From: the human T2T-CHM13v2.0 reference genome, Homo sapiens | Direction: 5' to 3' (one strand) | Assembly: GCF_009914755.1 (NCBI RefSeq) | Contig: NC_060942.1 | Length of the DNA: 64,000 bases | Part shown: positions 31,471 to 61,150 of the stretch, one piece after another | Layout of the letters: the number at the start of each line of letters is the position of its first letter | Numbering within the stretch: the first letter of the stretch is position 1 | Made by a program: the position numbers and the translations under genes | Notes under the pieces: model-generated | Seen by the model: the letters and a program-made list of their open reading frames with translations, nothing else | Database searches by the model: none | What the model was told of the DNA's origin: nothing

Positions 31471-34400
31471 TAGCTAAAATGCTCCAGGAAGAAATGAGGC
31501 AAGAAGAATGAATTGACAAGGAGAGATACCTGCAATAGCAGAAAGACAATGGTGATGATGATGATGATAGTTAATATTTATTAATTACTTTCTAGCATCA
31601 AGGATTTTACTAAGCATTTTTATGTATCACCTTATTTAATTTTTCATGTGTTTAATTTTTCATGTATTACCTTATTTAATCCTCCAAATACTATGATGTA
31701 GATATTATCATTCCCATTTAGACAATTACACAGGTTAAGACATCCAGGAATTTGCAAGCAAGATAAATAAAGAGAAATCCACACTTAGACACATTACAGT
31801 GAAACTATCAAAATTCAAAGATGAAGAGAGAATCTTAAAAGCAGCCAGAGAAAAAAAGATGGCAAAATAATGACATTGACAGACAAACTAAAACGGAGAA
31901 TTGGTCGCCCAGGGACCCTCACCAAAGCAAATTCTAAAGGATATTATTCAGGCAGAAGGAAAGTAATCCTAGAAGGAAAGTTTGAGAGACAAGAAGGAAT
32001 GACAAGCAAAGAAAGTGGTAAATATCCAAGCAAATGCAAATAAACATTGGTTGTATAAAATAGTGACAATATTATGCATAGGGGTTAGGGAAACCCCAAC
32101 AAGATCCATTTAAAATGCCAGAAAACACAGTATATATATATATATGTCAGAGGGAGGGTAAATGGAATTAATTGGCTCAAAAGTTACTACCTTTTCAGGG
32201 GGAGCGTGATGAGGGTTGGAATAAGCTTAGACTTTGATAAATTCTAAATTCTAGGATAAATATAAAAAATTCAAACTTGTGGAGGAAAAAAATTGGAGTA
32301 ACAAAAGTTGCTTAGACTTGCATATGCATGTATAAAGAAAAGCAAGAATGTAATTACTATAAAAAGCAAGGATATAATTACTATGAAAATCAGAATAGTG
32401 TTACCTTTAAGCAGGAGGTATCTGTATCCCTGTGACCTGGAAGGCATGCAGAGAGTTTCTGGGATACTGGTAAATTTTTGTATCTCAGGTTGGGTGGTGA
32501 TGCAGTAGGTGTGAGTTTTATCATTGTTTTTTTAAATGTACAAGTATATTTAATGTAGTTTTATGTTTGCATGTTTTTTTAAGTAATTAATTAAAAAAAT
32601 TAATTAAAAAGCAAATAACCTGAGGTTGAGATGAGCAGATTCCAGGAACATTCTTAGGGTAAAAATAGGCAAGAGAAAGTATTAATGGAGTTGAAAACAA
32701 AGTCACCTACATTTAGCAACGTGTCTTTGATGAGTGGCTTTATTTACTGACACTTTTCCTAAAACTGAACATGTATAACTGAACAAAAGTGACAAAGATC
32801 TCTGCCCTGCGGATCCTAGAGCGGGGGACAGATAGTAAACCAGTTTTAGTATTCTCCTGTAATGTTGCTTATTGCTAAAGCAGGAGGGGTCAGGAAATCA
32901 AGTCCCTTTAGAGAGACACCAATAAAACTGCTGGTTTGATTTATATGAGACCAGTCGAAGGGGTAGCTTTTAAGTCCCTCCTGTCTGTAGAAGGTATAAT
33001 TCCATGATTGTTGTGAAGTTTGTGACCAAAAAGCATTATAATAGTAAGAGCAAGAATCAGCTATAGCCTCAAATTTCTGAAAATGACCTCAGAATTTCAT
33101 CTCAGAAAGAGCTTGGCAATGAAACAAAAGACATACAAATCAAAAGTGGAAAACAGCTCCAGGAAAATTTTGATTATCTTGAATAAGAAGGCATCCAGAG
33201 CTGTAGCAGAAAAACTAATTTTGCTGAAAACACAGACAATAAAGGCGTGAAAGTCCTGGTGGAAAAGGAACTGTGTTTCAAATGTGTTCAGGTTGATATT
33301 AGGCTAATATTGTGTGTCCAGGCTTGGACCTCTAGGATCTGGGTTCCCGGGATTGGCTGCTATCCTACCGAGTAGAGTGACCGGATTTGTACCCAATGTG
33401 CTCCAGCCTTCCTGAGCAAAATCAACCTTCATGAGCGGATGCCAGCTGAAGGCTTGTCCTTAACCCGTCATCCAGCAAATCATTAAAAGAGGTTGTCAAA
33501 GACAATACAGATTTCCTCCAAGTCGTTTGCTGGATTAAAAACAATTCAGGGGACCATGAGGAAGCCAGAGTGGAAGGCCAGAACACAGCATGTTAGTGAT
33601 TCCAGGTCCAAGGTAAGCCTGAAAATTCAGCTCCGGCTTTCAGAACCCACTGGCCCATTCTGACACAGCCTATTCATTTATTTTAAATTATATTCTCCCA
33701 TTATGTATGCTGTGTCCGAATACCACTATGTGCTGGACAGAGCTCTGGGTGGTGTATTCTTTTGTGTAAATAGCATTTAGAACATTCGGTAATAAATTAC
33801 AGTCTACCAGATAACCCATATGTACTTACTGAGGGTGAACTATAGATTTTAAGATATTATAAGTCTTAGTCTTATCCTCAATATATTTACAAGCTATAGT
33901 TGGGAGCAAATATATTGATACAGTAACTGACTGAAAATAACAAAAGTTTCCATAAGAATTAAGTGATACATTTCATGATATGAACGATAATAAAACAGGG
34001 AGATTACTGAAAGTTTAAACTGGTCTGGGAGGTTTCATGGAAGTCTGAACTTGTGCCCGGATTATGAGTGTGGATTTGGAGGTAGTGTTTAAAGAAAAGA
34101 TAAGGGGCAGGTATCCTAGTGAGAGAAACAGTGTTCAGGCAGGAAAGAGTACGAATTTACTACCACATACCTAAATGTGCAGGTTTGGAGAGCAATGGGC
34201 TAGAAGGAACATGTCGTTTCTGCTAATTGGTTTCTTCAGCTGTGACTCCTAATATTTACTGTTTCATTTGCTCAATGCAAACTATGAAGTACTTGCTCAG
34301 AGTACATGGAGCAGCTGGGTTTCTGGAATCCATGTGTTTTGAGCCTATTTTCCTTTTAAGAATAGTACAGAATACATTTATTGCAGGAAGCTCTTTTCCA

Positions 34401-42400: not shown

Positions 42401-44585
42401 TTAAAATAGTTCAACTAAAGTATATATTCTAATCAACTGACATATTTGTTCACTAGTGATATGAATTGATTTTTAAGTCAGTGGAGTCAGTGGCTTATTG
42501 AGTGGTATTGTTTAGTACTAGTGAATCTTCCAACTCACGTAGGTTCCTTATAGCTAAGTGACCACCTGTCTTGTTTGCATGAGATACCGTTGTCTCTGAA
42601 ATTACTACTAGTGTTTCCTTTTGCTTTCAAAAGGAAATTTTGAAATGGATGGTAAAGTACATGAACACTCTACCTATACAGTCCTGGAAGCCATTGTTTT
42701 GGACTCTTTTTTGGACCAAATCTCTTCCCTAGATTTTTCATGCCTTTTTTGTAGTATAGGCCCCAGGGCTGTTTTTCTTTGCTTCAGTGGATTCCAATGG
42801 AAACGTTTTGCTGAAGAATGCATTTATAAAAGAATTTTAGAAATGATCAAAAAATTTTAAAATACATAATCTTCGCTCTTTTTCACCATTGAACACTCAG
42901 CACTTTGCACAATGCTTGGCTATCGTAGAGACTCCATAATTACTTGTTGAAGAATAAACAATTTAAAACTTAACCATTTTTTATTTAAGAAAATTCAAGT
43001 TTCTTCACACACACACTTTTCTTCCCAAAGATACTAAGCTACTGCATGATTACTCTTGGAATCATTGCTTAGTAAAATATTTCTCAAACATTGTTTGAAT
43101 AAAGATTACTTGGCATTTGGACAAACAGGACCAAAAGTCAGACTCCCAGATCCTGCCCCTGAGAGTCTGGTTTTGTCTCAGATAATGCCAGATAAATAAT
43201 AGGCATTCCATCTAGGATCCTCTCCAACTCCAAGTCTTTGAAATCTTTGTCTTACTTTAATTTCAAAAGGATATTTCCTTGACTTCCTACTAAGTTGTCC
43301 ATCTTTCTACCATGTCACTGCTGATAATGTAGTTGTGGAGAAGATATTAGACTGCATAAAAGCCAGGTTCCACCACATAACTGGCTTTTTACCACTTCCT
43401 CTCTCTGGACACAAATTTCCTCCACCTTAAAATGACATGGCTGAGCTACAAGATCTCTCGGATCTCTTGCAACTCTGTTATCAGGTGGTTCTTATCTTTG
43501 AAGCCTGATAGATGTCTGATCATGAGACATTTTCCACAAAAGAGTACAACTACTTTGTCTTTGTTGCTTCATTTGCAAGAAATAATCTCTGGATTAATTA
43601 TTACTTAAGAGATATTTTTAGTCTTTTAGGTTATTAAGCACCATTCTTCACCAACAACTTTCTGCATCAATTTTTTTTCAGATTCCCTAGATACGTGTAT
43701 TGGGAGGTGATTGGTATTTTTTTTTTCATTTCAGAGGTTAAAAATAATCTCTTAACTTTTGCCAATTGTCTTTTAGATCCTGCCAAAGATATTTCTACAG
43801 ATAAGAAAAAAGCCTTTGCCTTGGAGTATAATTTGCAAAAGTTGAAAGAGCCTTGTTTGCTCACATACCCTGTTATTAAATCATAAGCACAATCAGAAGT
43901 AATTGCTTGGGTGGCCATGCCAATTGGAGCCCACAAGATGGGAAGAAAAAGGGACCCTGGTGAATACATGTGCAGAGATTTGTTCATCAGATTAACTATC
44001 TTGTGGTGTATTGAGGCTTGAGGAAGGCTAAGCCATGTCATATTAATTTTTTTCAGAAGCAGAGAGAGAGAGAGGGAGAGAGAGAATAGACTGGAAAAGT
44101 TGTAGAGCATGGAAAGGTCCCCAAGAAGGTCAAGACTTGATGAGCAGTGGGTGGTGAGCCTCTAAAAGTTGTTTCCTCTGAAAGTTTTTTCCTCTTATTG
44201 GAGGAAAAGACAATCACATGTGGTTAGAAAAGAAGCAACAGAAACATTCACTTATACCAGAATTCTGTTCCTGTCTTGGGCTGTTCTTGAGGTCAGAAGG
44301 AAGAGTCCTGAGAAGTGATGTGACAGGGGAGAGAAGGAAGAAATGTATCTGACTGCAGTTTCTTTCTACTAAGCAGGCTGCTTGGGGAGGAGTATTGAGA
44401 GTGTAGTCACAGAGGTGGCATTGATTTTCTTGTGCCTTTACGTGATTACTTAACACCGCAGGTGTTAAGGTGGGTGGATCCCATGTAAAGAATAATTATT
44501 TATTATTTAGTCTAATCCACACTGGCACTGATGTCTCATAGTTGATTTACTATTAATCAACTCAATTATTTCTCAAGATTTTAGG

Positions 44586-44593
44586 TATAAAGG
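44586..44593 (+). promoter_or_regulatory. TATA box of the DYNAP-like gene
   Basis: TATAAAGG begins 67 bp upstream of a strong-Kozak ATG (agaATGG at 44653). Confidence 0.7.
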
Positions 44594-44652
44594 GCAATGA
44601 AGAGGCTGGAAAACGTTTCTGGAGTTAAGCTTGTGATATTTGCAGTTCAAGA

Positions 44653-44709
44653 ATGGACAGAAAACATGGGAAATACATAGTGAACATTGAACACTCTGGA
44701 AACCAGCCA
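44653..44709 (+). CDS. DYNAP-like type II mucin, coding exon 1 (MDRKHGKYIVNIEHSGNQP)
   Basis: 19 codons, strong Kozak, donor CCA|GTGAGT at 44710 (phase 0); close to the recalled DYNAP segment MDRKHGKYILNVEHSENQP. Confidence 0.88.
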
Positions 44710-46714
44710 GTGAGTATTGGTGGCACCACTGTGATATATTCTCACAGTCCAGAGTCTTATTTTCAATATTTATGAAACTCTAATTTTTAAAAATTATAAC
44801 ATAGTTTTTCCCAAAATGGAATTCTTAAAATTTTACATGGAAGCCAATTTCTAGCTGCTCTATTACAACTTATTAATTAGAAAACTTGTATTTTTTTCTG
44901 CATGTCAATACATGCATAGCAGAGAAACTTATTTTAAATAATCACTGATCTAAGACATCAGCAATTTTGGGGGGTAACAATTTAATGATATGTTTAATAC
45001 TTTACAGTTATTATAATTTAAGCATAAGACAACAAATGTGGGTTTGATTGCATTAGCAAATTAAACTTTTAAAATGTGATGTGTAGATTTTTGTGTTAAC
45101 TGCCAAGATTGTTAGTGTAATATCTAGATTTGTCAGAACCCAGATATTTCTACATATCTTTGGGAGTCAGAAGTGAATCTTGTAAGTAAAGTTGAGGCCT
45201 AGGAAGCAAATTATCTAGCAAATCCTTTAGACTGGCCTCTACTTAAGTACTTATGAATTTCTTTTTTGGTAAAGAATTGTATTTAGGTAATATTTTAGAG
45301 TTCAATTACATACAACCTTGTTTATTGTTTAGGTTTTTAGAAGAAACAATTTAGCTCTGTATGTTTTATGATTGCATTTTATATAACTCTTCATGTCTAA
45401 CTAGAGTCCTTGATATTGGAAACAGAAATGGAAATGTGCTGAATGAAATCAGTGTAAGTTTGAATGGATAGTTATGTTTTGTGAGGAAAAATATTTTTCT
45501 CTCCATGAACTAACAAGGAAGTTATAAGGCAGATAAATTTTTCCCTTGATTCTGGATCAGGACCCCTCTACCCTGAAGACGGTCTTCATGGTCTGTCTAG
45601 CCCTGCAAATCTGTCACTGTGTCTTCACAGTGTCAACATACTCAAATAAAAAGATTTCTTTGGTAATAGTAAGGAATCAGTTAGTCATCTTGAGTGTTTT
45701 CCTAAACAATGCTGTTTTCAAGTAAAGGTTACATATTTTAACACTGACTGAATATTTTACTTACATGTGTATACTTGGACATAGTGATAGAAAAAAATTT
45801 TTTTTCATTAAGGGCCATTTTGGTCAATGGATTGAATAGAAATTGAAGGCCACATAAAAATAAAATGTAGGAGTTTGTTTTTCTCTCTTAGGAAACAAAA
45901 ATTGGTAAATTAATCTCTTTAAATCTGTGAATAGGGAATTTAAAATTTTACTCTGTGAGTATAGCTAATGCATATCAGATGCATGATGGAGATTATTGGC
46001 TGCTACCAAAAGCTAATTAAGTATAATTCACAGCTCCCTAACTGATCAATTTCTAACTTTAGAGACAACTTTTAACTTTAATTTTTAACTTTAGAGACTG
46101 ACAGGAGAAACTGAGATAGCACGAATTATATTACCCCCAAAGCTCCACTGGGGTGTGTTCTTCATTCTTGGTACAGGTACCCACTATCTCCTTTCCTTTA
46201 AAGAATTTAAAAGAAATTCAGGCAAGCTGGTTTGGAAAGTGAGGTTTTACTTAATTATATAAGTTCAACAACAACAAAATCTAAGTTCATCACCCTCAGT
46301 ATACTAAATTGCTGAAGAATAAGTGAAGCTTTTATAAAAGATAAATCTTTGTTATTTTTCTCAAAGTTTCTGATTGAAAAACAGATGGAATTTTGTTAAA
46401 GTACCTGTGTATATCAGATTTTATCTTATTCGATATCACTGAATAGCTACTAAAAAATGTTCTGGCTTGCTATTGTACTGTAAAAAAAATTAGACTCTGG
46501 CTAAGTCTTTACACCCAGATATATTCCTTCTTGACTGTATTTAATCACAATTAAACTCTCTTTTATTCTTATGTATAGTCTGTCACTGAGTAGTGTCTGC
46601 ATACACATATGGTTTGATTGTTTCAATAGAATTTAGAGATTAATTGATCTGTCAGTAGTTTTTTAAAAATCCATTTAGGATGGGGTATTTAATCAAGAAG
46701 GTCAAGAGAGTATA

Positions 46715-47053
<339 letters not shown>

Positions 47054-47286
47054 TAAATAATATTCTTACTGTTGTATTAGAAAAAAAGTTCTAGATAATT
47101 GTATAATATTTTTCAATTGTAACAAATTTACATGGACCAATTTGCAGTCCCTTGAATATCTAACACAGATTATTCTCCTTTTTCTTAAAACTGTTTCTGA
47201 GATTGTTTTTTCTTTCAACCACCCTTTAAGAAAAACCTAACCCCCCAAATGTTTCACATTTGAACCGACATTTTTAATGCATTTAG

Positions 47287-49320
<2,034 letters not shown>

Positions 49321-49480
49321 GCTTAGTATACTCATTATTTTCAATTTTTAAAAATTAAGGTACAGTATACTTTATGTAAATTATACATAAAGTAAACATA
49401 TTTAAGTGAACAGGTTAATGAATTTTTACACATATATATGTGCATATATACATCAAACACATACCTGTGTAACCATCCCC

Positions 49481-49913
49481 TGTAGAGTCTTAATTAGGGA
49501 AAAGGAGTCAGGCTGGTGGAACCAAGGGAAAGCAAAAACCAAAAGCAGATAAGCTATAAGTCTGCCATTCTTCATGGTCCAGGACACACAGCTGTCCTGT
49601 GCAAATAACTTACAATCTTCCTGTGCCCAACCGATCACCAGACACCTGCAAGTTAGCTCACTGCAATCTTGGCATTATCAATACTGCATAAATCCCTCTT
49701 CAGCACACAGCGCAGGCACCATCCTACAAAATCCCCAGCAAGCCTTTATCTCCTTGCCATCAGCTCCTCTCTTGCTAACTTGCCCACTGTTTCCTTGCAA
49801 CTTATTTTGCAACTTTCTCTGATAAATCTACTTTTCTTTACCTACAAGTGTTTTGATAAATTATTTTTACCACCCATGCCACTGGCCCAGATAGTCACTG
49901 ATCACCTGTGACA
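49481..49913 (+). mobile_element. ERV solo LTR (MER83-like)
   Basis: TG...CA ends with a perfect tcccc TSD; begins tgtagagtcttaattagggaaaaggagtcaggctgg. Confidence 0.8.
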
Positions 49914-50250
49914 TCCCCTAGATCTAAATACAGAACATTTGCAACATCCAAGAAGACCCCCTATGCTGCTGCCAATCAGTACCCCATCCTTTCAGAGGTA
50001 ACCACTCTTACTTCTGTTGCCGCATCTTAGTTTTGTGTTTTCCTGAATTCTGCATAAATGGAGTTGTACAGTACTCTTATGTGTGTGGCTTATGTTGCTC
50101 AACACCATATCTGTATCACTGGTTTCTTCTTTATAACTGTAAAATATTTCATTTGCATAAACAAACCATAATTTATTTATCCATTTTCCTGCTGATGAAC
50201 GGTTGAGTTGTTTTCATTTTTTGATGTTATGGATCAAGCTTCTGTGAACT

Positions 50251-50893
50251 TGTTGCACCCAAGTGAGTTAGAGAAACGCCACACTTTGAGAAGAAATTGA
50301 GAGTCCTTTATTTAGCCGGCGACCGAGAGGCAGCTAACGCTCAAAATTCTCTCGGCCATGAGGAAGGGGCTTGATTTTCTTTTATTCTTTGGTTTAGGTA
50401 GGGGAGGGGGGTTCAGATGCAATAATTCTACAGAGGTAAAACATGCAAAAAAATTAAAAAGGACAAATGGCTACAGAGAAACAAACAATTTAAAAGACAA
50501 ATGGTTACAGAGAAGCAACAGTACCAGGTGCGGGGGCTCTAAATCCTTCATAAGATGTTAGATATGGGTGCTATGCCGGACACAAACTCAAGGCTTTATG
50601 GTGTTATCTTTTGAGCAAAATCCTGGGAACTTCGTACATTGCTTGTTTTAGTACCTTATCAGTTAATTGGACTCTTTTGATATGTTGAGAATCTGCTTAC
50701 ACAAGTTAACTCCTTGAGGAAAAGGGGTGGGTAGGGAGTCCTTAATGTCTTGTAAATCAAGGGAGCCAGGTGGAGTTCCTCGGGCTTTCTCAGCTAAGGG
50801 AGAGTCTATTCATGTGGAAACAAGGCTAGGTGATTAAGGGAGAAAAAAGGAGAGTCTAAAAACTGGGTTAGTAAAATAAGGTTAGGCATTACA
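50251..50893 (-). mobile_element. ERV1 solo LTR (LTR6/HERV-T-like)
   Basis: Reverse complement begins tgtaatgcctaaccttattttactaacccagtttttagactctcc, as in recalled LTR6; several CpGs retained. Confidence 0.8.
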
Positions 50894-51758
50894 AAATTCC
50901 TTGTCCATGGCTTATGGAGCACATATACTTTCACAGCTCTTGGATGTACAGGCAGGAACACAGTGACTATGTCATATGATAGGTGCTGAGAGATGCTAGC
51001 TGTCCAGGTGTTCAATTAGGACTTTGAGCCAAATTAAAAGTAATGACTAAGCCCTTATTCACTTATTGCAATAGTATAAGCAAGAGGTCGAAGAGATATG
51101 GTGTCAGCCACCATAATGTTCCATTTTTTTTTTTCTCCACATAACAGCACTGGGCAAGAGTTAAATGGATCAGCATAGACCAGGATGACCCAATTGCCAA
51201 GGGACCACTAAACAAAGGGCTTCTGCCATTTTATGGACTGGGAGATAGAGAAAGAGGAAGAAGGCCTAGAAGTGGGAAAGAACTGAGTACTGAGTCAGGG
51301 TGGAGAAAATTGTCTTCAAGGCCCCTGTTAAGGAGATGTCCACACAAGTGCTTGAACAGTATCTCCCCTGAGGCAACCCTTGTTTCTAACCCCTCACCAA
51401 ACAAGGAAGGCTCCAGATGGAAGTTCCTAGGCAAGGAATGAAGATATGCTCAACAGCATGATTGCCCAGGGTGGCATGGGGGAAGGGAAGGCTGAATTCC
51501 TGACTGCAGGTTCCTTCATAGACTGCAGTGCACAAATGCAATGCAGCTTCCTGACTGCAGCTTCCTCCAGATACTGCAATGCACAGCTGCACCAAATCTT
51601 CAGGGAGGGCCCTTTCCTCTTTGAGGCTTTCCAGGTGAAGCCTTTGCAGTGGCCTATGGTTACATCAGAAAGGTCACACATAGAATTTTGGCCTGGAGCC
51701 AGACATCTGAATAGGTAGTAAATGTTTTACATTTTTTCCCATTCTTTTCTGCCTATAG

Positions 51759-51923
51759 CCTTTCCTGAGTCCAAGAAACCATGAAGCTCACAATTCAGCA
51801 TGTCAATTCTCTACATCAACTGAAATAACTGGTGATGTTGGTACTAATTTAATTGGTGCCTGCACCAGCCCAGCGACCCTTGAACACTCAGAATTTCCAA
51901 ACAGAGAATTCCAACATTATCAG
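51759..51923 (+). CDS. DYNAP-like type II mucin, coding exon 2 (PFLSPRNHEAHNSACQFSTSTEITGDVGTNLIGACTSPATLEHSEFPNREFQHYQ)
   Basis: Polypyrimidine tract plus TAG acceptor (51757-58), 165 nt = 55 stop-free codons, donor CAG|GTAATA; aligns without gaps to the recalled DYNAP middle segment (EAH...C...IT.DV..NL.G.C..P..L.HS). Confidence 0.88.
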
Positions 51924-52634
51924 GTAATACTTGGGACAACAATGTTTTCTGGATTAAGATATAATCCACATGAAAATACTCTTGATCCAATATTTGGAGG
52001 AAGAACATTCGGTCAATTAACATTAACATTTTTCTTTTGAGAAATCCTTTGAAAATGTGAAGTCACTGAGAGGGAATATAGGAGAGGTAGAAGATTTATG
52101 GGGCTGTTTGTTTGCTTAAGGAGTTAATGATCTTAATAGAAAGACAAAAACATATAAGGAGTTTAGAGAGGGCCAAAGAAAACAAAAATTAGAGGCTTTT
52201 ATTTTTGAAGTACTGAATAGGTAGCAACATAACAAATACATTGGCAGTGAATGACATTGTCTGTAAACCTTGCTCAGGTGGAAGATGACGTCATGTGTTG
52301 AGGTCCAGGCCCTAATCTGTGGATGATCTGTCTCACTCTGCCTTCCTGCATGCCTCTGAATCTAACTGTGGGCCTTCCTGTAGCCCTCCTGGCTCTGATC
52401 TCATATGTTTTCAACCTTGACTTAGATGGTTTATGTACCCTGGGAGGTATAAAGAGTTTCTAAGAAGATATTTATTATTTTTTAATTTGGAAAGATATAT
52501 TCATGTGAATGAGAAAGCATGAGAGATCAGCGGAAATTTCTTTGAACATTAAGGAAACAAAAGTACAAGGCTTTTCCTAATAAAAGCTAAAATTTGGGCC
52601 CAGCGTTTGTTATTTAAAATAGTTTTTATCTTCC

Positions 52635-53304
52635 TGTTTTATGCTCAATGGGTTCTTCTTGCCCACTGCTTAGATAGAACAAATTTGTCAAGACAGGGGG
52701 ATTGCAATAAAGAGTTTTACACACTTAGAGCTGGCTAAATGGGAGGCCAGAGTTTTATTATTACTCATATCCGCCTCCCCCCAGATTTGGAGGCTAGAGT
52801 TTTTCAAACATAGTTTGGGAGAAGGAGAGGTGGCTAGGGAATGGGTGCTACTGACTGGTTGGGGATGGAATCATAGGAGTGTGGGAAATAGTCCTCATGG
52901 CCACTGAAGTTGATTCTGGGTGGGGCCACAGGACGAGTTGGGGCCACCAGTCATCAGAAATGCAAAAACCTGAAAAGGAATCTCAAAAGACCAATGTTAG
53001 GTGCTACAATAGTGAAGGAATCTGCAGGAGTAATTGGGGAAGTTGTAAATCTTGTGATCTCCAGAATAATGATAGGTAATCATTTATGTCTACACCTGAT
53101 CAGAATTCAGGCTCCTCTCATCCTCCTAACCTGGTGGTCTTTCATTAGCTTTACAAAGGCAGTTTAGTTTTGGGGAAGGGCTATTATGCCTAGGAACAAG
53201 TAAGGACAGTTTGGAGATTAAAGTCAAGATGAGGGTTGATTAGATCAGATATCTTTCACCATCATAATTTTCTCACTGTTATAATTTTTGCAAAGTTGGT
53301 TTCA
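52635..53304 (-). mobile_element. ERV1 solo LTR (LTR8A/B-like), intron 2
   Basis: Reverse complement begins tgaaaccaactttgcaaaaattataacagtgagaaaattatg; TG...CA ends. Confidence 0.85.
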
Positions 53305-53334
53305 TTTATACATTGTTTCAATGAAGTAATCTAT

Positions 53335-53645
53335 TTCAAAATCTACTACAAAGCTGTAGTAATCAAAACAGGATGGTATTGGCACTAAAAAACCAGACCA
53401 ATTGAAGAGGACAGAGTCCAGAAATAAATCCACACATTAATGATCGATTGGTTTTTCAACAAAGATGTGAAGAACACACAATGAAGAACAGTCTTTTCAA
53501 AAATGGTGTTGGGAAAACTAAATATCCACCTGGAGAAGAGGGAAATTGGACTCTGATCACTCATCATATACCAATATCAACACAAAATGGCAAAACACTC
53601 AAGTGTAAGACTTGAAACTATAATGCTACTAGAAGAAAACGTATA
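53335..53645 (+). mobile_element. Old L1 ORF2 fragment, intron 2
   Basis: tactacaaagctgtagtaatcaaaacaggatggtattggc...cttttcaaaaatggtgttgggaaaact. Confidence 0.8.
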
Positions 53646-53723
53646 AAAAGGATGAACAATGGCATTAATTTTTCATAAAATATTTATTTTCATCCTTAGT
53701 AATTTTATTTAAATCCGTTCCAG

Positions 53724-56700
53724 GTGACACGAAATTTCTTCTGTGACTGGTCTCTATGGAAAACCTTTCTGGCTTGTCTCTTAGCCTGTGTGATAACGAC
53801 AGCAATTGGAGTACTCATAGTATCCCTGGTATATAATGGGAAAAATAATAATGCCTCCATTGTTATCCAATTTCCCCAAAGCCATGGAACACCCTCATCT
53901 GCCACTGGAATAACCTCATCTATAGTTTCTCAACCTACTGTTGCCACTACTATAATAAATTCTACCACAAAATCCACTTCACCTAAACCTACTATTATAA
54001 GAACCACTGCAAGCACTTCTATAGAACCTACCAGCACAATGACCTCCAATAATACTTCAGCTGCAACTACAATATCACCAGCCACCACTTCAGCTGAAGC
54101 CACAGCCACAGCAACAGCAGGAATTTCCACAGAAGCTACAACCAAAACAGCCACCACTAACACTTCCACTGAATACACATCCGCAACAACAACGAGCAAT
54201 GCAACTGAACAGTCCACCACAACAACTGCAGGCACTTCCACCGAGTCTACAATCACAACAGCCACCACTGCCACCTCTACTGAACCCACAACCACAACAA
54301 CAGCCAGTAGTGCAACTGAACAGTCTGCCACCACAACTGTAGGCACTTCCACTGAGACTACAACCACAACAGCCACCACTACCACGTCTACTGAATCCAC
54401 AACCACACCAGTCAGCACTGCAACTGAACAGTCTGCCACCACAACTGCTGGCACTTCCACTGAGATAACAGCCACAACAGCCACCACCACAACCTCTACT
54501 GACTCCACAGCCACAACAACAGCCAGCACTGCAACTGAAAAGGATGCCACTACAAATGCAGGCACGTCCACTGAGGCTACATCCACCACAGCCACCACTA
54601 CCACTTCTGCTGAACCCACGACAACCACAGCAAGCACAGCAACTGAACAGTCTGCCACCACAACTGCTGGCACTTCCATTGAGACTGCAACCACAACAGC
54701 CACCACTGCCACCTCTACTAAACCCACAACCACAACAACAGCCAGCACTGCAACTGAACAATCTGCCGCCACAACTGCTGGCACTTCCACTGAGGTTACA
54801 ACTACAACAGCCACCACTACCACTTCTACTGAATACAGAATGACAACCACAGCAAGCACTGCAACTGAACAGCCTGCCACCACAACTCCAGGCACTTCCA
54901 CTGAGGCTACAACCACAGCAACCACCACAACCACTTCTACTGAGCCCACAACCAAAATGACAGCCAGCATTGCAACTGAACAGTCTGCCACCACAACTGC
55001 AGGCACTTCCACTGAGGCTACAACCCCATCAGCCACCACTACCACCTCTAATGAACCCACAACCACAACAGCCAGTACTGCATCTGAACAGTCTGCCACC
55101 ACAACTACTGACACTTCCGCTGAGGCTACATCCACAACAGCCACCACTACCACATCTACTGAACCCACAATGACAACCACAGCAAGCACTGCAACTGAAC
55201 AGTCTGCCACCACAACTGCAGCCACTGCTACTGAGACTACATCCATAACAGCCACCACTGCCACCTCTACTGAACCCACAACCACAACAGCAGCTAGCAC
55301 TGTGACTGAACAGTCTGCCACAAGAACTGGAGGTACTTCCACTGGAGTTACAATCACAGCAGACACCACTGCCATGTCTACTGAACCCAGCACTACAACA
55401 ACCGGCACTGCCAGTGAACAGTCTGCCACCACGACTGCAGGCACTTCCATTGAGGCAACAACCACAACAGCTACCACTACCACCTCTACTGAACCCAACA
55501 CCACCACAACAGCCAGCACTGTAACTGAACAGTCTGCCACCACAACTGCAGGCACTTCCACTGAGACAACAGCCACAACAGCCACCACTACCACTTCTAC
55601 TGAACCCACAATGACAATCTCAGCAAGCACTGCAACTGAACAGCCTGCCACTGCAACTGCAGCCATGGCCACTGAGACTACAACTACAACAGCTACCACT
55701 GCCACCTCTACTGAACCCAGAACCACAACAACAGCCAGCACTACAACTGAACAGTCTGCCACAACAACTGGAGGTACTTCAACTGGAGTTACAACCACAA
55801 CAGCAACCACTAGGACCTCTACTGAACCCAGCACTACGACAATTGGCACTGCGACTGACCAGTCTGCCACCACAACTGCAGGCACTTCCATTGAGACTAC
55901 AACCACAACAGCCATTACTACCACCTCTACTGAACCCACCACCACCACCACAACAGCCAGCACTGTAACTGAACAGTCTGCCACCACAACTACAGGCACT
56001 TCCATTGAGACAACAGCCACAACAGCCACCACTACAGCTTCTACTGAACCCACAATGACAACCACAGCAAGCACTGCAACTGAACAGCCTGCCACTGCAA
56101 CTGCAGCCACGGCCACTGAGACTACAACTACAACAGCCACCACTGCCACCTCTACTGAACCCACAACCACAGCAGCCAGGACTGTAACTGAACAGTCTGC
56201 CATCACAACTGTAGGCATTTACACTGAGACTACAACCCCATCAGCCACCACTACCACTTCTACTGAACCCACAACCACAACAACAGCCAGCACTACAGCT
56301 GAACAGTCTGCCACCACAACTGCAGGCACTTCCACTGAGACAACAACCACAACAGCCACCACTACCACATCTACTGAACCCACAATGACAACCACAGCAA
56401 ACACTGCAACTGAACGGTCTGCCACTGCAACTGCAGCCACTGCTACTGAGACCACAACCACAATAGCCACCACTGCCACCTCTACTGAACCCACAACCAC
56501 AACAACAGCCAGCACTACAACTGAACAGTCTGCCACAACAACTGGAGGTACTTCAACTGGAGTTACAACCACAACAGCAACCACTAGCACCTCTACTGAA
56601 CCCAGCACTACGACAATTGGCACTGTGACTGACCAGTCTGCCACCACAACTGCAGGCACTTCCATTGAGACTACAACCACAACAGCCATTACTACCACCT

Positions 56701-57185
56701 CTACGGAACCCACCACCACCACAACAGCCAGCACTGTAACTGAACAGTCTGCCACCACAACTGCAGGCACTTCCATTGAGACTACAACCACAACAGCCAT
56801 TACTACCACGTCTACTGAACCCACCACCACCACAACAGCCAGCACTGTAACTGAACAGTCTGCCACCACAACTACAGGCACTTCCACTGAGACAACAGCT
56901 ACAACAGCCACTACTACCGCTTCTACTGAACCCACAATGACAACCAGAGCAAGCACTGCAAGTGAACAGTCTGCCACCACAACTGCAGCCAGGGTCACTG
57001 AGACTACAACTACAACAGCCACCACTGCCATCTCTACTGAACCCACAACCACAACAACAGCCAGGACTGTAACAGAACAGTCTGCCATCACAACTGTAAG
57101 CACTTACACTGAGACTACAACCCCATCAGCCACCACTACCACTTCTACTGAACCCTCAACCACAACCAGCCAGCAGTGCAACTGA
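53724..57185 (+). CDS. DYNAP-like type II mucin, coding exon 3: CLLAC-motif TM segment plus Thr/Ser/Ala tandem-repeat ectodomain
   Basis: Acceptor ttccAG|GTG; 1153 codons open; hydrophobic FLACLLACVITTAIGVLIVSLVY (53766-53834); then 27 in-frame repeat units; TGA follows a frameshift at ~57168. Confidence 0.85.
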   Translation: MTRNFFCDWSLWKTFLACLLACVITTAIGVLIVSLVYNGKNNNASIVIQFPQSHGTPSSATGITSSIVSQPTVATTIINSTTKSTSPKPTIIRTTASTSIEPTSTMTSNNTSAATTISPATTSAEATATATAGISTEATTKTATTNTSTEYTSATTTSNATEQSTTTTAGTSTESTITTATTATSTEPTTTTTASSATEQSATTTVGTSTETTTTTATTTTSTESTTTPVSTATEQSATTTAGTSTEITATTATTTTSTDSTATTTASTATEKDATTNAGTSTEATSTTATTTTSAEPTTTTASTATEQSATTTAGTSIETATTTATTATSTKPTTTTTASTATEQSAATTAGTSTEVTTTTATTTTSTEYRMTTTASTATEQPATTTPGTSTEATTTATTTTTSTEPTTKMTASIATEQSATTTAGTSTEATTPSATTTTSNEPTTTTASTASEQSATTTTDTSAEATSTTATTTTSTEPTMTTTASTATEQSATTTAATATETTSITATTATSTEPTTTTAASTVTEQSATRTGGTSTGVTITADTTAMSTEPSTTTTGTASEQSATTTAGTSIEATTTTATTTTSTEPNTTTTASTVTEQSATTTAGTSTETTATTATTTTSTEPTMTISASTATEQPATATAAMATETTTTTATTATSTEPRTTTTASTTTEQSATTTGGTSTGVTTTTATTRTSTEPSTTTIGTATDQSATTTAGTSIETTTTTAITTTSTEPTTTTTTASTVTEQSATTTTGTSIETTATTATTTASTEPTMTTTASTATEQPATATAATATETTTTTATTATSTEPTTTAARTVTEQSAITTVGIYTETTTPSATTTTSTEPTTTTTASTTAEQSATTTAGTSTETTTTTATTTTSTEPTMTTTANTATERSATATAATATETTTTIATTATSTEPTTTTTASTTTEQSATTTGGTSTGVTTTTATTSTSTEPSTTTIGTVTDQSATTTAGTSIETTTTTAITTTSTEPTTTTTASTVTEQSATTTAGTSIETTTTTAITTTSTEPTTTTTASTVTEQSATTTTGTSTETTATTATTTASTEPTMTTRASTASEQSATTTAARVTETTTTTATTAISTEPTTTTTARTVTEQSAITTVSTYTETTTPSATTTTSTEPSTTTSQQCN

Positions 57186-58780
57186 ACAGTCTGCCACCAC
57201 AACTGCAGGCACTTCCACTGAGACAACAACCACAACAGCCACCACTGCCACTTCTGCTGAACCCACAATGACAACCACAGCAAGCACTGCAACTGAACAG
57301 TCTGCCACCACAACTGCAGCCACTGCTACTGAGACCACAACCACAGCAGCCACCACTGCCACCTCTACTGAACCCACAACCACAACAACAGCCAGCACTA
57401 CAACTGAACAGTCTGCCACCAAAACAGTAGGCATTTCCACTGAGGCTACATCCACAGCAGTCACCACTGCCACTTCTACCAAGACACCCACCATGACAAC
57501 CACAGCAAGCACTGCAAGTGAAGAGTCTGCTACCACAACTGCAGCCACTGCCCTGAGACTACAATCACGACAACCACCACTACCACTTCTACTGTACACA
57601 CAATGAGAACCACAGCAAGCACTGCTACTGAACAGTCTGCCATTACAACTGCTGACACTTCCACTGAGGCTGCAACTACAACAGCAACCACTACCACCTC
57701 TATGGAACCCACAACCACAACAACAGCCAGCACTACAACTGAACAGTCTACTGCAACAATTGAAGGTACTTCCACTGGAGTTACAGCCACAACAGACACC
57801 ACTGCCACAACAACTGGGGGTATTTCCACTGCAGTTACAACCACAACAGACACCACTGCCACGTCTACTGAACCCAGCACTACAAACTCCAGCACTGCAA
57901 CTGAACTGTCTCCCACCGCAACTGCAGGCACTTCCACTGAGGCTGCAACCACAACAGTCACCACTACCACCTCTACTGAACCCACCACCACAACAGCCAG
58001 CACTGTAACTGAATAGTCTGCCACCACAACTACAGGCACTTCCAATTAGACAACAGCCACAACAGCCACCACTACCACTTCTACTGAACCCACAATGACA
58101 ACCACAGCAAGCACTGTAACTGAACAGTCTGCCACCAGAACTGCAGGCACTTTCACTGACACTTCTACCACAATAGCCACCACTGCCACCTCTTCCGAAT
58201 CCAGTAGTAGAACAACACCTGGCACAGCAACTGAACAGTCTGCCACAACAACTGCTGGCCTTTCCACTGAGACTACAACGACCACAGCCACCACTACCAA
58301 CTCTACTGAACCAAGCACTACAACAGCAGCCAGCACTACAACTGAATAGTCTGCCATAACAACTGCAGGCACTTTCTCTGAGGCTACAACCACAACAGCC
58401 ACCGCTACCAACTTTACTGAACCCACAACCACAACAACAGCCAGCACTGCAACTGAACAGTCTGCTACAACAAGTGCAGGCACTTCCACTGAAGCTACAA
58501 CCACCACAGCCACCACTGCCATCTGTACTGACCCTGAAACCACAACAACAGCCAGCACTGCAACTGAACAGTCTGCCACAACAACTGCAGGCACTTCAAC
58601 TGATACTGCTACTGCAATTACCACCACTGCCACCTCTGCTGAGCCGGGCACTACAACAGCCAGCATTGAAATGGACCAGTTTGCCACAAGTGCAGCAACT
58701 TCTGCTGAGTCTTCAACCACATTGGCCACCACCACTGCTTCCTCAGAAATCACCACTTCAATCCAACAAGCCACCTAATT
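54204..58780 (+). repeat. Coding-type tandem array, ~41 units of mostly 111 bp (108/114 variants), consensus TEQSATTTAGTSTETTTTTATTTTSTEPTTTTTASTA
   Basis: 'actgaacagtctgccaccacaact' anchor recurs at 54204, 54315, 54423, 54534, ... 58563, 58671. Confidence 0.95.
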
Positions 58781-61150
58781 GCCAGCACTTTTACTGAGGC
58801 TGCCACCATGGTGAGCACTACTACGTCCTCTACTTGATCTACAACACCAATAGCAACCAGTATCTCCATTGAAACAGCCACCATAATAACATCAGGCCCT
58901 TCCACTGTGGCTACAATTACAACAGCCACCACTCTCCCTTCTACTGTACCCATAAGCACAATAGTAGCTAGCACTGAAACTAAACAGACTACCACAATGA
59001 CTGTGGGTACTTCCATAGTGGGTACAACCAAAATTGCCACTGCTAATGCCCTCACTGAGTATACAACCACAATAGTAGCCATGATGCCCACTGAACAGAC
59101 TAGTGCAACTGCAGGGACTTCCACTGAGTCATCAATCACAATGATCCCAACTCTGCTTCTACAAAATCTTCAACCACAACTACAGCCACCAGTTCACCTG
59201 AACTGACCACCACAACAACTGCAGGCACTCCGACTCAGGCTACAACCACAAAATCCCCATTACTACTTCTACTGAACCCACTACTCCAACAGCATCCACC
59301 ACTTTGACTGAACTAAACCTGGAAAACAGAAATAGCCACCATTTTTACTACGGTCATTACCATAACAATCATAGGCAGCATTTCTACTAGCCTGTAAGTA
59401 TAAGAGCCAGGACAATTGCTTCAAAAGAACCAATTATCACAACAGCAGCCATTCCTTCAATTTGACCACAAACCACACAACCATATATAGCACTTCAGCT
59501 GAATTTAACAGAACAACAACATGGACCTCATCTAATGAGTGTGTAGATGCAATTGGTAGTGCTACCACTTTTTTTTTTTTTTTGAGACAGAGTCTCACTC
59601 TGTTGCCCAGGCTGGATTGCAATGGTGCCACCTCTGCCTCCTGAGTTCAAGCGATTCTCCTGCCTCAGCCTCCCAAGTAACTGGGACTACAGGCATGTGC
59701 CACCACGCCTGGCTAATTTTTTGTATTTTCATTAGAGATGGGGTTTCACCATGTTATCTAGGATGGTCTCAATCTCCTGACCTCGTGATCCACCCGCCTC
59801 AGCCTCCCAAAGTTCTGGGATTACAGGCATGAGCCACTACACCTGGCCTGCTACCATTTTAAATAAGCTAATAACCACAACAGCAGCTGCTACTTTAACC
59901 GAAGTTACTATAAGGACACCTACTGGTAGCACCTCATCTGAACGTGTCAGCATAATTGTGAGCACCATTTCTTAATCCAAACTTATCACTGTAACTTCAA
60001 GCTTTGTTCCTTCAACTGAATACATTACTGCTATCACAATTATCTTTTCAATTGAGGCCACAGCCATGACAACCAGGTTCATATTAACTGAGTCTACGAC
60101 CATTGTAACTTTTTACTGAATCTACTATCATAAGATTAACAGTTTCACTCATTGGTATCCACAGTGGCCAAAACTCCCACTTCAGTTAAAGCTACAACTA
60201 CCTAAATCATCCAACAACTTTAACTCAACCCTGAATTACTCTCATATCAAATGAACCTACAAATGACTATTACTTTAACAAAATCATCAGGCACTACTAC
60301 CAGCACTTTAATTGAATTTACAACCCTCACAATAGCTACCTCCAACTCAGTTACTGAATCTATTCTGTTTTCTGATACAACTAAAACATCATCTTTAACC
60401 TCCACTGACACCAACTCAACTAAATGAAAGCCAACACATACACTACTAACTCAACTGACTCTTCGATCACAACTCCCTAGCAATGTCAGCTCAGTTTACA
60501 ATCTCCATGAGCATCATTACCTGTTAATAGAAAATGCAATTACAGTTTCTACATAATCTGCTATCATAATACTGCCAGCTCTTCCATGGCCCCTTCAAAT
60601 GAGTCCCTTCATAGCCACAGCAACCATGCCACATCAGCAAAATGTGCTACTCCCATGACATCTACTGAAATTTCACAATAGAGACCACATTTCTACTCTA
60701 TGTACTCCTACAACAGACAAAACTTTACTGAACCTTTTAGTACCCTATCACTGGAATCTACAAGCATCACAATTTCTATTAGCATGTTATTCAAAGTCAT
60801 TCAGTGCTTATTCATAAATGCAACACTATCATTTTTTTCTAGTAAATTGACTAAGTCAGATTACTACTCTCACTTGACAAAAATGACAACTTTCTAATGA
60901 CCTATTCCTGGGGCAACTGTGGTTAGTATACCTAGAAATTAAATCCTAACATGTACTATCCTCATTCCTACACCAGATATACCAGATTCTGTATCAACCA
61001 TCAATACCATAGGGAATTCTATGGCCAGTATCAGTGCCAACATATAACTCCAAAAACGTGGGGTTATAGTGGTTACCAGAAACAACCACTTCTAAAACAA
61101 GACTTACTTATTGACCAGTTCAGCTATTACTACCATGACAATGAAGTCAT
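57186..61150 (+). pseudogene. Decayed continuation of the mucin exon (now presumably 3' UTR)
   Basis: Same repeat with a 1-bp deletion ~57552, TAG at 58014/58047/58347, TAA 58776, then increasingly divergent ACN/TCN-rich sequence on both sides of an Alu. Confidence 0.8.
59569..59848 (-). mobile_element. Alu (AluSc-like, small internal deletion) inserted in the decayed mucin exon
   Basis: Reverse Alu with 'ggatggtctcaatctcctgacctcgtgatc'; TSD tgctacca at 59560 and 59849. Confidence 0.95.

What the first reader, a model, noticed from the sequence alone, without database searches (positions are those of the whole stretch)
44586..57185. Intact three-exon DYNAP paralogue encoding a 1227-aa type II membrane mucin
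Seen: TATA box, strong-Kozak ATG and three exons (19, 55 and 1153 codons) joined by phase-0 GT-AG introns (7049 and 1800 bp) with no stop until 57183. The product has no signal peptide, an ~88-aa N-terminal region, one TM segment (aa ~89-111, preceded by R/K), N-glycosylation sequons just after it (NAS, NST, NTS) and ~1,100 aa of T/S/A/E/P repeats. Known: DYNAP (C18orf26) is a short type II membrane protein with the CLLAC motif, whereas classical tethered mucins (MUC1, MUC4, MUC16) are type I. Inference: this is an 'inverted' mucin built on a DYNAP scaffold that pipelines could easily miss or label a pseudogene, since exons 1-2 are short and exon 3 is repeat-masked.
Basis: partly seen in the sequence, partly recalled or inferred. 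Interest (0 to 1): 0.95.

Follow-up and report, generated by a model that had tools for sequence, protein, structure and literature searches.

The report
Human DYNAP-like membrane mucin gene, already annotated
This stretch of human chromosome 18 holds an open 1227-codon gene for a membrane-anchored, mucin-like relative of DYNAP that public annotation already lists both as a predicted protein and as a pseudogene, and whether people actually make the protein is still untested.

Summary
The three coding exons, GT-AG introns, Kozak ATG, 1227-aa frame, single membrane segment and about 1,100 aa of Thr-rich repeats are all in the sequence.

Exon 3 carries the Pfam CLLAC domain. In a family tree the protein falls in a well-supported "DYNAP-like" clade found in bats, cattle, whales and a cat, sister to DYNAP proper. 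The human branch is the shortest in that clade.

"Intact" needs qualifying. The 111-bp repeat array runs about 2.1 kb past the stop. The frame ends at a 2-bp deletion, and nine further disablements lie downstream, against none upstream. An in-frame TAA closes the ancestral N-terminal extension, and two upstream ORFs precede the ATG. The "TATA box" lies inside a RefSeq exon.

My reading: a real, old DYNAP-family gene for a type II mucin-like glycoprotein, kept open by selection until at least recently. I put the odds that humans make the protein at about even. No expression or population data were within reach.

The parts
33534..33612 (+). RefSeq 5' non-coding exon of XM_047446838. It holds an ATG in frame with the main ORF that opens a 35-codon upstream ORF.
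   Evidence: Hub annotation. GT donor after 33612, ATG at mRNA position 23, and the uORF ends at the TAA at 44626-44628.
44578..44652 (+). 5'UTR part of the first coding exon.
   Evidence: An AG acceptor precedes 44578.
44653..44709 (+). Coding exon of 19 codons. The start ATG sits in a strong Kozak context, and the Met is conserved across the family.
   Evidence: M1 nearly invariant.
51759..51923 (+). Coding exon of 55 codons (cytoplasmic tail). It is the counterpart of the 55 residues missing in isoform dynAPb.
   Evidence: no stops here, whereas the DYNAPP2 counterpart has 2. PMC8329785 abstract.
53724..54104 (+). Start of the last exon: end of the tail, the CLLAC membrane segment (about 53763-53834), sequons, and a non-repetitive Thr/Ser-rich stem.
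   Evidence: CLLAC at exon-3 aa 8-37, E = 7.4e-16.
54105..57166 (+). Open part of the 111-bp (37-aa) repeat array, about 27.6 units. Every indel nets to a multiple of 3 and there are no stops in the Thr frame.
57167..57185 (+). 2-bp deletion relative to the repeat consensus. It shifts the frame, and the stop follows at 57183-57185.
57186..59260 (+). Relic of the array beyond the stop. It carries a -1 frameshift at about 57553; TAG at 58014, 58047 and 58347; further frameshifts at about 58776, 59153 and 59257; and TGA at 58812 and 58835. Identity to the consensus falls to about 72-77% and then to background.

Best explanation
The locus is the human copy of an old mammalian 'DYNAP-like' gene, the sister clade of DYNAP within the CLLAC family.

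If translated from the ATG at 44653, it gives a type II (N-terminus inside, C-terminus outside) single-pass membrane protein. It has an 87-aa cytoplasmic tail related to the dynactin-binding tail of DYNAP, a CLLAC membrane segment, and a 1116-aa ectodomain that is 60% Thr+Ser. That ectodomain would be densely O-glycosylated and would stand out from the cell surface as a mucin-like brush.

The ectodomain is a local tandem amplification of a T/S-rich unit that the family already had. The array erodes from its far (C-terminal) end. A type II protein can tolerate that, because the stop lies in the last exon and only the tip of the ectodomain is lost.

Steps shown here: the family membership, the anatomy, and the pattern of decay. 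Steps inferred: topology, glycosylation and function, from DYNAP experiments and from composition. Not shown: that humans transcribe and translate it.

I hold that the frame has been kept open by selection until at least recently, and that the 'pseudogene' label rests on comparison with DYNAP rather than on a disabling lesion of the core protein.
For: **Family and orthology**
- Pfam CLLAC scores 57.9 bits against a cut-off of 25.
- In a tree of 45 rows, the 13 DYNAP-like rows form one clade with SH-aLRT 100. The human row pairs with the unnamed record P0001 at 99.

**Slow evolution of the human core**
- The human end branch is 0.026. Its path from the base of the clade is 0.125, the shortest of the clade's tips.
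- Human and P0001 differ at 16 of 126 aligned sites. Three differences are human-derived, 12 are P0001-derived and 1 is ambiguous.
- For comparison, gorilla and macaque DYNAP differ at 12 of 125 sites.
- There are no stops or frameshifts in the two short exons or the membrane segment. The dead neighbour DYNAPP2 has 2 stops in its 55-codon exon and an in-frame stop after its membrane segment.

**Decay gradient in the last exon**
- There are 0 disablements in 53724-57166 (3.44 kb), 5 in 57167-58775, and 5 more up to 59260.
- If 5 events fell at random over 53724-58775, all would land in the last 1.61 kb with p = 0.0033 (my arithmetic).
- All 9 net indels in the open part of the array are multiples of 3.
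- The units there are not all young. Identity to the best other unit is 81-98%, mostly 88-95%.

**Topology and glycosylation, by homology**
- DYNAP is type II with its C-terminus outside. Its T/S-rich region causes a gel shift ascribed to O-glycosylation (PMC8329785 sections 3 and 16; PMC4540312 passages).
- The repeat consensus aligns to the DYNAP T/S region better than 60 of 60 dinucleotide shuffles (z = 6.2). An intron control gives z = -0.8.
Against: - HGNC and RefSeq label the same place DYNAPP1, a pseudogene (hub note).
- No transcript, ribosome or peptide evidence was available to me.
- The RefSeq model ends exactly at the stop codon, so it has no 3'UTR. No AATAAA or ATTAAA occurs until 60938.
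- The 5'UTR of the model has an in-frame 35-codon uORF and an out-of-frame 27-codon uORF that overlaps the main ATG. Both would lower translation.
- The N-terminal extension translated in DYNAP and in P0001 is closed by a TAA.
- The tests on the repeats are weak on their own.
  - A simulation with the observed substitution number and spectrum expects 2.3 stops in the open part, so P(none) = 0.093.
  - The nonsynonymous-to-synonymous ratio against the consensus is about 0.60 in the open part and 0.73 beyond the stop, a small difference.
  - Disablements are not independent. The TAGs at 58014 and 58347 sit 333 bp apart at the same unit position and may be one event that was copied.
- No named primate orthologue came up among 46 proteins of 174-557 aa. 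Only one long form, P0002, appeared among candidates of 634-2018 aa.
- The species of P0001 is unknown, so the rate on the human branch cannot be calibrated.
Confidence: 0.55

Rival explanations
1. Unprocessed pseudogene (DYNAPP1). The copy no longer makes a protein in humans. The long frame survives because the repeat has few stop-prone codons, because slippage in a 3-periodic repeat favours indels of 3n, and because the core exons are short.
For: - The curated pseudogene label (hub note).
- A TAA in the ancestral N-terminal extension, plus uORFs.
- The frameshift truncation.
- A stop-free open part is not rare under neutrality: P = 0.093.
- An antisense 762-aa frame shows how easily long frames arise in this DNA.
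- No poly(A) signal near the stop.
- No paper holds LOC124908007, and DYNAPP1 appears in one paper's gene list only (search listing).
Against: - The shortest branch in its clade, and only 3 of 16 differences from P0001 are human-derived.
- The dead neighbour DYNAPP2 shows what decay looks like here.
- 10 disablements lie beyond the first frameshift and none lies before it.
- Most orthologue models also start at the same Met, so the TAA need not disable the protein.
Confidence: 0.3
2. Segregating allele. The open 1227-codon frame is a property of the CHM13 haplotype. Other human haplotypes, perhaps including GRCh38, carry other repeat numbers or earlier frameshifts, so the gene is functional in some people and broken in others.
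For: - The hub note names the CHM13 RefSeq annotation as the source of the protein-coding model, alongside a pseudogene record.
- Arrays of this kind are usually length-polymorphic (general knowledge).
- Copies of 7-8 units at 93.5-98% identity show ongoing rearrangement.
Against: - Nothing here shows any second haplotype.
- The core exons are conserved.
Confidence: 0.12
3. A paralogue of MUC22, as the RefSeq name 'mucin-22-like' suggests. That would make it a classical type I tethered mucin family member.
For: Only the automatic name and the Thr/Ser/Ala-rich composition (hub note).
Against: - All 19 of 19 genome matches to three repeat units lie within this array, at window 54105-59313.
- All non-repeat parts match DYNAP-family proteins.
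- There is no N-terminal signal-like segment.
Confidence: 0.02

Closest known systems
DYNAP (dynAP, C18orf26), about 50 kb downstream on the same strand
   Same: - The CLLAC membrane segment.
- 61% identity over the first 51 aa of the last exon and 51% over the two short exons, measured against gorilla DYNAP.
- The same exon layout, including a 55-codon exon (PMC8329785 abstract).
- An extracellular T/S-rich region after a sequon (PMC4540312 passages).
- C-terminal erosion: relic T/S-rich sequence in the 3'UTR.
   Different: - The ectodomain is 1116 aa here against about 75 aa in DYNAP.
- The two form separate clades that split before the divergence of bats, carnivores, cetartiodactyls and primates.
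- The N-terminal extension is closed by a TAA here.
- DYNAP has experimental support for topology, localisation and dynactin binding. This copy has none.
Predicted 'dynactin-associated protein-like' genes of other mammals (Myotis, Bos, Pteropus, Rhinolophus, Hipposideros, Leopardus and cetacean models; unnamed P0001 and P0002)
   Same: - The same clade and the same start Met, tail and membrane segment.
- T-rich ectodomains with recurring STEP-like motifs.
- Some models end in Asn/His/Tyr-rich tails that look like frameshifted Thr repeats (P0003 and P0027).
   Different: - The ectodomains in those models are about 50-300 aa, against 1116 aa here.
- P0002 has a different, shorter repeat unit.
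- Draft assemblies may have collapsed their arrays.
Tethered mucins such as MUC1, MUC21 and MUC22
   Same: It works like them. A large single exon of Thr/Ser-rich tandem repeats sits next to a membrane anchor, so a glycocalyx or barrier role is expected.
   Different: - Those mucins are type I, with a signal peptide and a C-terminal anchor (recalled, not tested here).
- There is no sequence relation: the repeat is found only at this locus.
- Proline is low here at 3.5%.
Type II proteins with mucin-like stalks, such as the respiratory syncytial virus G protein and the stalk of enteropeptidase (recalled)
   Same: N-in, C-out topology with an O-glycosylated Ser/Thr-rich ectodomain.
   Different: These are resemblances from memory only, and no relation was tested. 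Here the ectodomain is nothing but repeats and is far longer.

Membership tests
DYNAP / CLLAC family (Pfam PF15675) | CLLAC-motif domain scoring above Pfam's gathering score | tested here: met
   57.9 bits against a cut-off of 25, E = 7.4e-16, exon-3 aa 8-37, full profile 1-30 of 30.
DYNAP / CLLAC family (Pfam PF15675) | Homology outside the membrane segment (cytoplasmic tail) and a shared exon layout | tested here: met
   the tail aligns end to end with DYNAP-family proteins. The 55-codon exon matches the 55 residues missing in dynAPb (PMC8329785 abstract).
DYNAP / CLLAC family (Pfam PF15675) | Type II topology with the C-terminus outside the cell | not testable with these tools
   Shown for DYNAP by antibody and flow cytometry (PMC8329785 section 16). 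Here there is only one hydrophobic segment and no signal-like start. Flank charges are 2 K/R before the segment and 1 after, which is weak.
DYNAP-like clade (orthologue of the mammalian 'dynactin-associated protein-like' genes) | Groups with those genes to the exclusion of DYNAP proper | tested here: met
   13 rows form one clade, SH-aLRT 100, with 0 of 500 label shuffles as low. Nine of 54 rows were left out as short, partial, avian or mis-modelled. This was a quick search with no bootstrap.
Mucin-domain glycoprotein | Long Pro/Thr/Ser-rich tandem repeats encoded in one exon | tested here: met
   about 28 open units of 37 aa, 48% Thr, 12% Ser. Pro is only 3.5%, which is low for a classical PTS domain.
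Mucin-domain glycoprotein | Dense O-GalNAc glycosylation of the repeats | not testable with these tools
   Inferred from composition and from the gel shift of DYNAP's T/S region (PMC8329785 section 16; a table row in PMC11976392 cites Yin, Konishi et al. 2022).
Mucin-domain glycoprotein | Expressed as a protein at a cell surface or in a secretion | not tested
   No expression data were within reach.
Pseudogene | A disabling lesion of the ancestral coding frame | tested here: inconclusive
   There are two lesions relative to relatives: the TAA in the N-terminal extension and the 2-bp deletion in the array. Neither touches the conserved Met, the tail, the membrane segment or the first 1100 aa of ectodomain.

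The most novel reading that the evidence does not exclude
People make a true type II ('upside-down') membrane mucin from the locus now labelled DYNAPP1. It would be a roughly 1,200-aa O-glycosylated brush held by a CLLAC anchor, with a cytoplasmic tail, like DYNAP's, that can engage dynactin. A glycocalyx component would then be coupled directly to the microtubule motor machinery. The DYNAP family as a whole would be a family of type II mucin-like proteins whose arrays grow near the membrane and erode at the tip.
Probability: 0.35. Interest if true: 0.7.

Novelty: new member of a known kind. Interest (0 to 1): 0.42.

Why it matters
If the protein is made, the human set of membrane mucins gains a member with the opposite membrane orientation to MUC1, MUC4 and MUC16. 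It would also have a tail related to a protein that binds dynactin and promotes Akt signalling, which is relevant to squamous epithelia and to cancers in which DYNAP is studied.

The locus is also a clear case of annotation conflict: a curated pseudogene and a predicted protein at one place. A complete assembly and comparison with other mammals argue that the pseudogene call deserves a second look.

The exact coding sequence is already public, so the gain is in interpretation and not in discovery.

Tried and rejected
Its held text, the first 300,000 characters, has no DYNAPP1, so the one printed mention could not be read.

**Searches with little or no yield**
- The search for long orthologues (634-2018 aa) gave only P0002 among 2677 candidates.
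- The search with P0001 gave 46 proteins, none of them a named primate DYNAP-like form.
- Literature: LOC124908007 had 0 papers and DYNAPP1 had 1. DYNAP plus mucinome gave 1 paper, a review table. The main text of the 'mucinization' paper PMC9417175 has 0 mentions of DYNAP. The CLLAC/CUPIN1/PF15675 search returned 73 papers; none of the 15 listed, nearly all on plant cupin_1 proteins, bears on this locus. The type II mucin search gave nothing on this locus.

**Tests that were not decisive**
- The stop-only simulation gave P = 0.093.
- The nonsynonymous-to-synonymous ratios were 0.60 and 0.73.

**Readings rejected**
- The TATA box as promoter.
- A MUC22 relationship.
- 'Array too young to have decayed'.

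**Could not be checked**
- Whether the array is repeat-masked.

**Not attempted**
- dN/dS, because no DNA of other mammals is held.
- Comparison with GRCh38 or other human haplotypes, because none is held.
Full report
**1. What is there.**
- Joining 44653-44709, 51759-51923 and 53724-57185 gives 3684 nt: 1227 codons and one terminal stop.
- Both introns begin GT and end AG, and both are phase 0.
- The ATG has A at -3 and G at +4.
- A hydropathy scan finds one hydrophobic segment at about aa 88-111 and a hydrophilic start.
- Sequons lie at 117, 153, 184 and four further places.
- The 1116 aa after the membrane segment are 48% Thr, 12% Ser, 14.5% Ala and 3.5% Pro.
- Tandem Repeats Finder reports a 111-bp unit, equal to 37 aa, at about 80% identity between neighbouring copies.

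**2. It is already annotated.** The hub note gives RefSeq model XM_047446838 (LOC124908007, 'mucin-22-like') with exactly these coding parts, plus a 5' exon at 33534-33612. It also gives a pseudogene record, DYNAPP1, over 44615-53869. What remains open is which of the two labels is right and what the protein is.

**3. Family.**
- The last exon carries the Pfam CLLAC domain (57.9 bits, cut-off 25).
- Protein searches returned 26 and 46 family members from mammals.
- I built a tree on the tail plus membrane segment: 45 rows and 126 columns, quick IQ-TREE, SH-aLRT only. Nine of 54 rows were left out: six short, partial or avian, and three with mis-modelled N-termini.
- The tree splits the family in two.
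  - One clade holds DYNAP proper.
  - The other holds 13 rows (SH-aLRT 100): the human window, the unnamed P0001 and P0002, and models from Myotis, Bos, Pteropus, Rhinolophus, Hipposideros, Leopardus and three cetaceans.
- Both clades contain bats and primates. The duplication therefore predates the split of those orders, and this locus is the human copy of an old gene.
- The name 'mucin-22-like' reflects composition only. All 19 of 19 genome matches to three repeat units lie in this array.

**4. The end of the frame is a truncation.**
- I aligned the array to its own consensus with a wrap-around alignment.
- From 54105 to 57166 every indel nets to a multiple of three, and the Thr frame has no stop.
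- At 57167 a 2-bp deletion shifts the frame, and the stop follows at 57183.
- The array itself goes on, with these lesions:
  - a 1-bp deletion at about 57553, which restores the original frame;
  - TAG codons at 58014, 58047 and 58347;
  - more frameshifts at about 58776, 59153 and 59257;
  - TGA at 58812 and 58835.
- Identity to the consensus falls to 72-77% by 58600-59260 and to background beyond that.
- Read along the Thr frame, the ancestral ectodomain was at least about 530 codons longer.
- The stop lies in the last exon and the C-terminus is the outer tip of a type II protein, so such a loss need not disable the protein. That step is inference.

**5. Is the frame kept by selection?**

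*For:*
- There are 0 disablements in the first 3.44 kb of the last exon, against 5 in the next 1.61 kb and 5 more in the following 0.5 kb. Five random events would all fall in that last 1.61 kb with p = 0.0033 (my arithmetic).
- The 5' units are as diverged from other units as the 3' units, at 81-92% to the best other unit. Decay at array edges therefore does not explain the asymmetry.
- The tail and membrane segment evolve slowly. The human end branch is 0.026 against 0.12 for P0001, and the path from the clade base is the shortest of all tips.
- Of 16 differences from P0001 in 126 sites, 3 are human-derived, 12 are P0001-derived and 1 is ambiguous. Gorilla and macaque DYNAP, a gene with experimental support, differ at 12 of 125 sites.
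- The neighbour DYNAPP2 shows real decay: 2 stops in its 55-codon exon and a stop right after its membrane segment.

*Against:*
- With the observed number and spectrum of substitutions, a simulation expects only 2.3 stops in the open part, and 9.3% of runs have none.
- The nonsynonymous-to-synonymous ratio against the consensus is 0.60 in the open part and 0.73 beyond the stop.
- The events are not independent, since two TAGs lie exactly three units apart.
- Copies of 7-8 units at 93.5-98% identity show that part of the array is younger than the rest.

*Balance:* I take this as moderate support for constraint up to recent times.

**6. The 5' end.**
It corresponds to codons that DYNAP translates, so it is not good evidence for a promoter.
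- In the RefSeq transcript, an ATG in the first exon opens a 35-codon frame in phase with the main ORF. That frame ends at a TAA (44626-44628), 24 nt before the main ATG.
- P0001 and DYNAP have Glu at that position and read through.
- A second, out-of-frame uORF of 27 codons overlaps the main ATG.
- The Met at 44653 is nearly invariant in the family, and most clade members are modelled from it.
- The TAA is probably why a comparison with DYNAP gives 'pseudogene'. That step is inference.
- The model has no 3'UTR, and no AATAAA or ATTAAA occurs before 60938.

**7. Family context in the genome.**
- The CLLAC segment matches four places, all on chromosome 18: this locus, the last exon of DYNAP, DYNAPP2, and a site inside CUPIN1P.
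- Human DYNAP ends after a short T/S-rich stretch, but its 3'UTR reads on as T/S-rich sequence in another frame.
- The repeat consensus aligns to that region better than 60 of 60 dinucleotide shuffles (z = 6.2). DYNAPP2 gives z = 3.8 and an intron control gives z = -0.8.
- Several models from other species end in Asn/His/Tyr-rich tails that look like frameshifted Thr repeats.
- A mucin-like ectodomain that grows by unit duplication and is clipped by frameshifts therefore seems to be a family trait. This locus is its extreme.

**8. How it most likely works.**
- DYNAP is a type II protein of the Golgi and plasma membrane with its C-terminus outside. It binds dynamitin and p150Glued. Its T/S-rich region causes an anomalous gel shift ascribed to O-glycosylation (PMC8329785 sections 3 and 16; PMC4540312 passages; a table row in PMC11976392 cites a 2022 study of that glycosylation).
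- By homology, this protein would sit the same way. Its 87-aa tail would face the cytoplasm. Its ectodomain, 60% hydroxy-amino acids, would be decorated by GalNAc transferases in the Golgi.
- That would give an extended, protease-resistant, anti-adhesive brush a few hundred nanometres long. The length is an estimate from recalled figures for mucin domains.
- Whether the tail still binds dynactin is unknown. It is 51% identical to gorilla DYNAP over the two short exons.

**9. Novelty and limits.**
- No paper in the library holds LOC124908007. DYNAPP1 occurs in one gene list that I could not read.
- The mucin-evolution paper PMC9417175 does not mention DYNAP in its main text. Its supplements, and the mucinome lists it refers to, were not seen and might name DYNAP.
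- I had no RNA, ribosome, peptide or population data, no DNA of other mammals, and no second human haplotype.

**10. Verdict.**
- 'Intact' and 'unannotated' are not right.
- The locus is best seen as a new, uncharacterised member of the DYNAP family with a mucin-sized ectodomain.
- I put about even odds on it being a working human gene.

Noticed in passing
L004:1486-1623 (chr18, about 65.6 kb upstream of the window start, inside the span the hub gives for CUPIN1P): A CLLAC-type membrane segment lies in the CUPIN1P region. The unnamed P0002 and a bird protein, P0026, combine cupin domains with a CLLAC segment. The neighbouring cupin gene may therefore share this anchor with the DYNAP genes, or gene models may fuse the two neighbours.
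   Followed up: partly
L002:1813-2150 (3'UTR of human DYNAP): After the DYNAP stop codon, the sequence reads on as Thr/Ser-rich protein in another frame for about 110 codons with a few stops. DYNAP itself looks like a C-terminally clipped form of a longer mucin-like ancestor.
   Followed up: partly
L003:1498-2208 and L015 (DYNAPP2): DYNAPP2 keeps a CLLAC segment, then an in-frame stop, then 165 codons of T-rich sequence. Its counterpart of the 55-codon exon has one TGA and one TAG. It makes a useful local picture of a truly dead copy.
   Followed up: partly
window 53930-56218, minus strand: The antisense strand of the array has a 762-codon open frame and several of 150-480 codons. This is a by-product of the low-complexity repeat and not evidence of a gene.
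   Followed up: no
window 55758-57414: There is a higher-order duplication inside the array. Units 16-17 match units 23-24 at 98%, and units 18-22 match units 26-30 at 93.5-96.4% (lag 7-8 units). The copy spans the site of the truncating 2-bp deletion.
   Followed up: partly
window 57186-60937: No AATAAA or ATTAAA occurs for about 3.7 kb after the stop codon, and the RefSeq model ends at the stop. The 3' end of any transcript is therefore undefined.
   Followed up: no
P0003 and P0027 (Myotis and Hipposideros models): These models end in Asn/His/Tyr-rich tails typical of Thr repeats read out of frame. This suggests recurrent frameshift truncation of the array in other mammals, or assembly errors in their repeats.
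   Followed up: no
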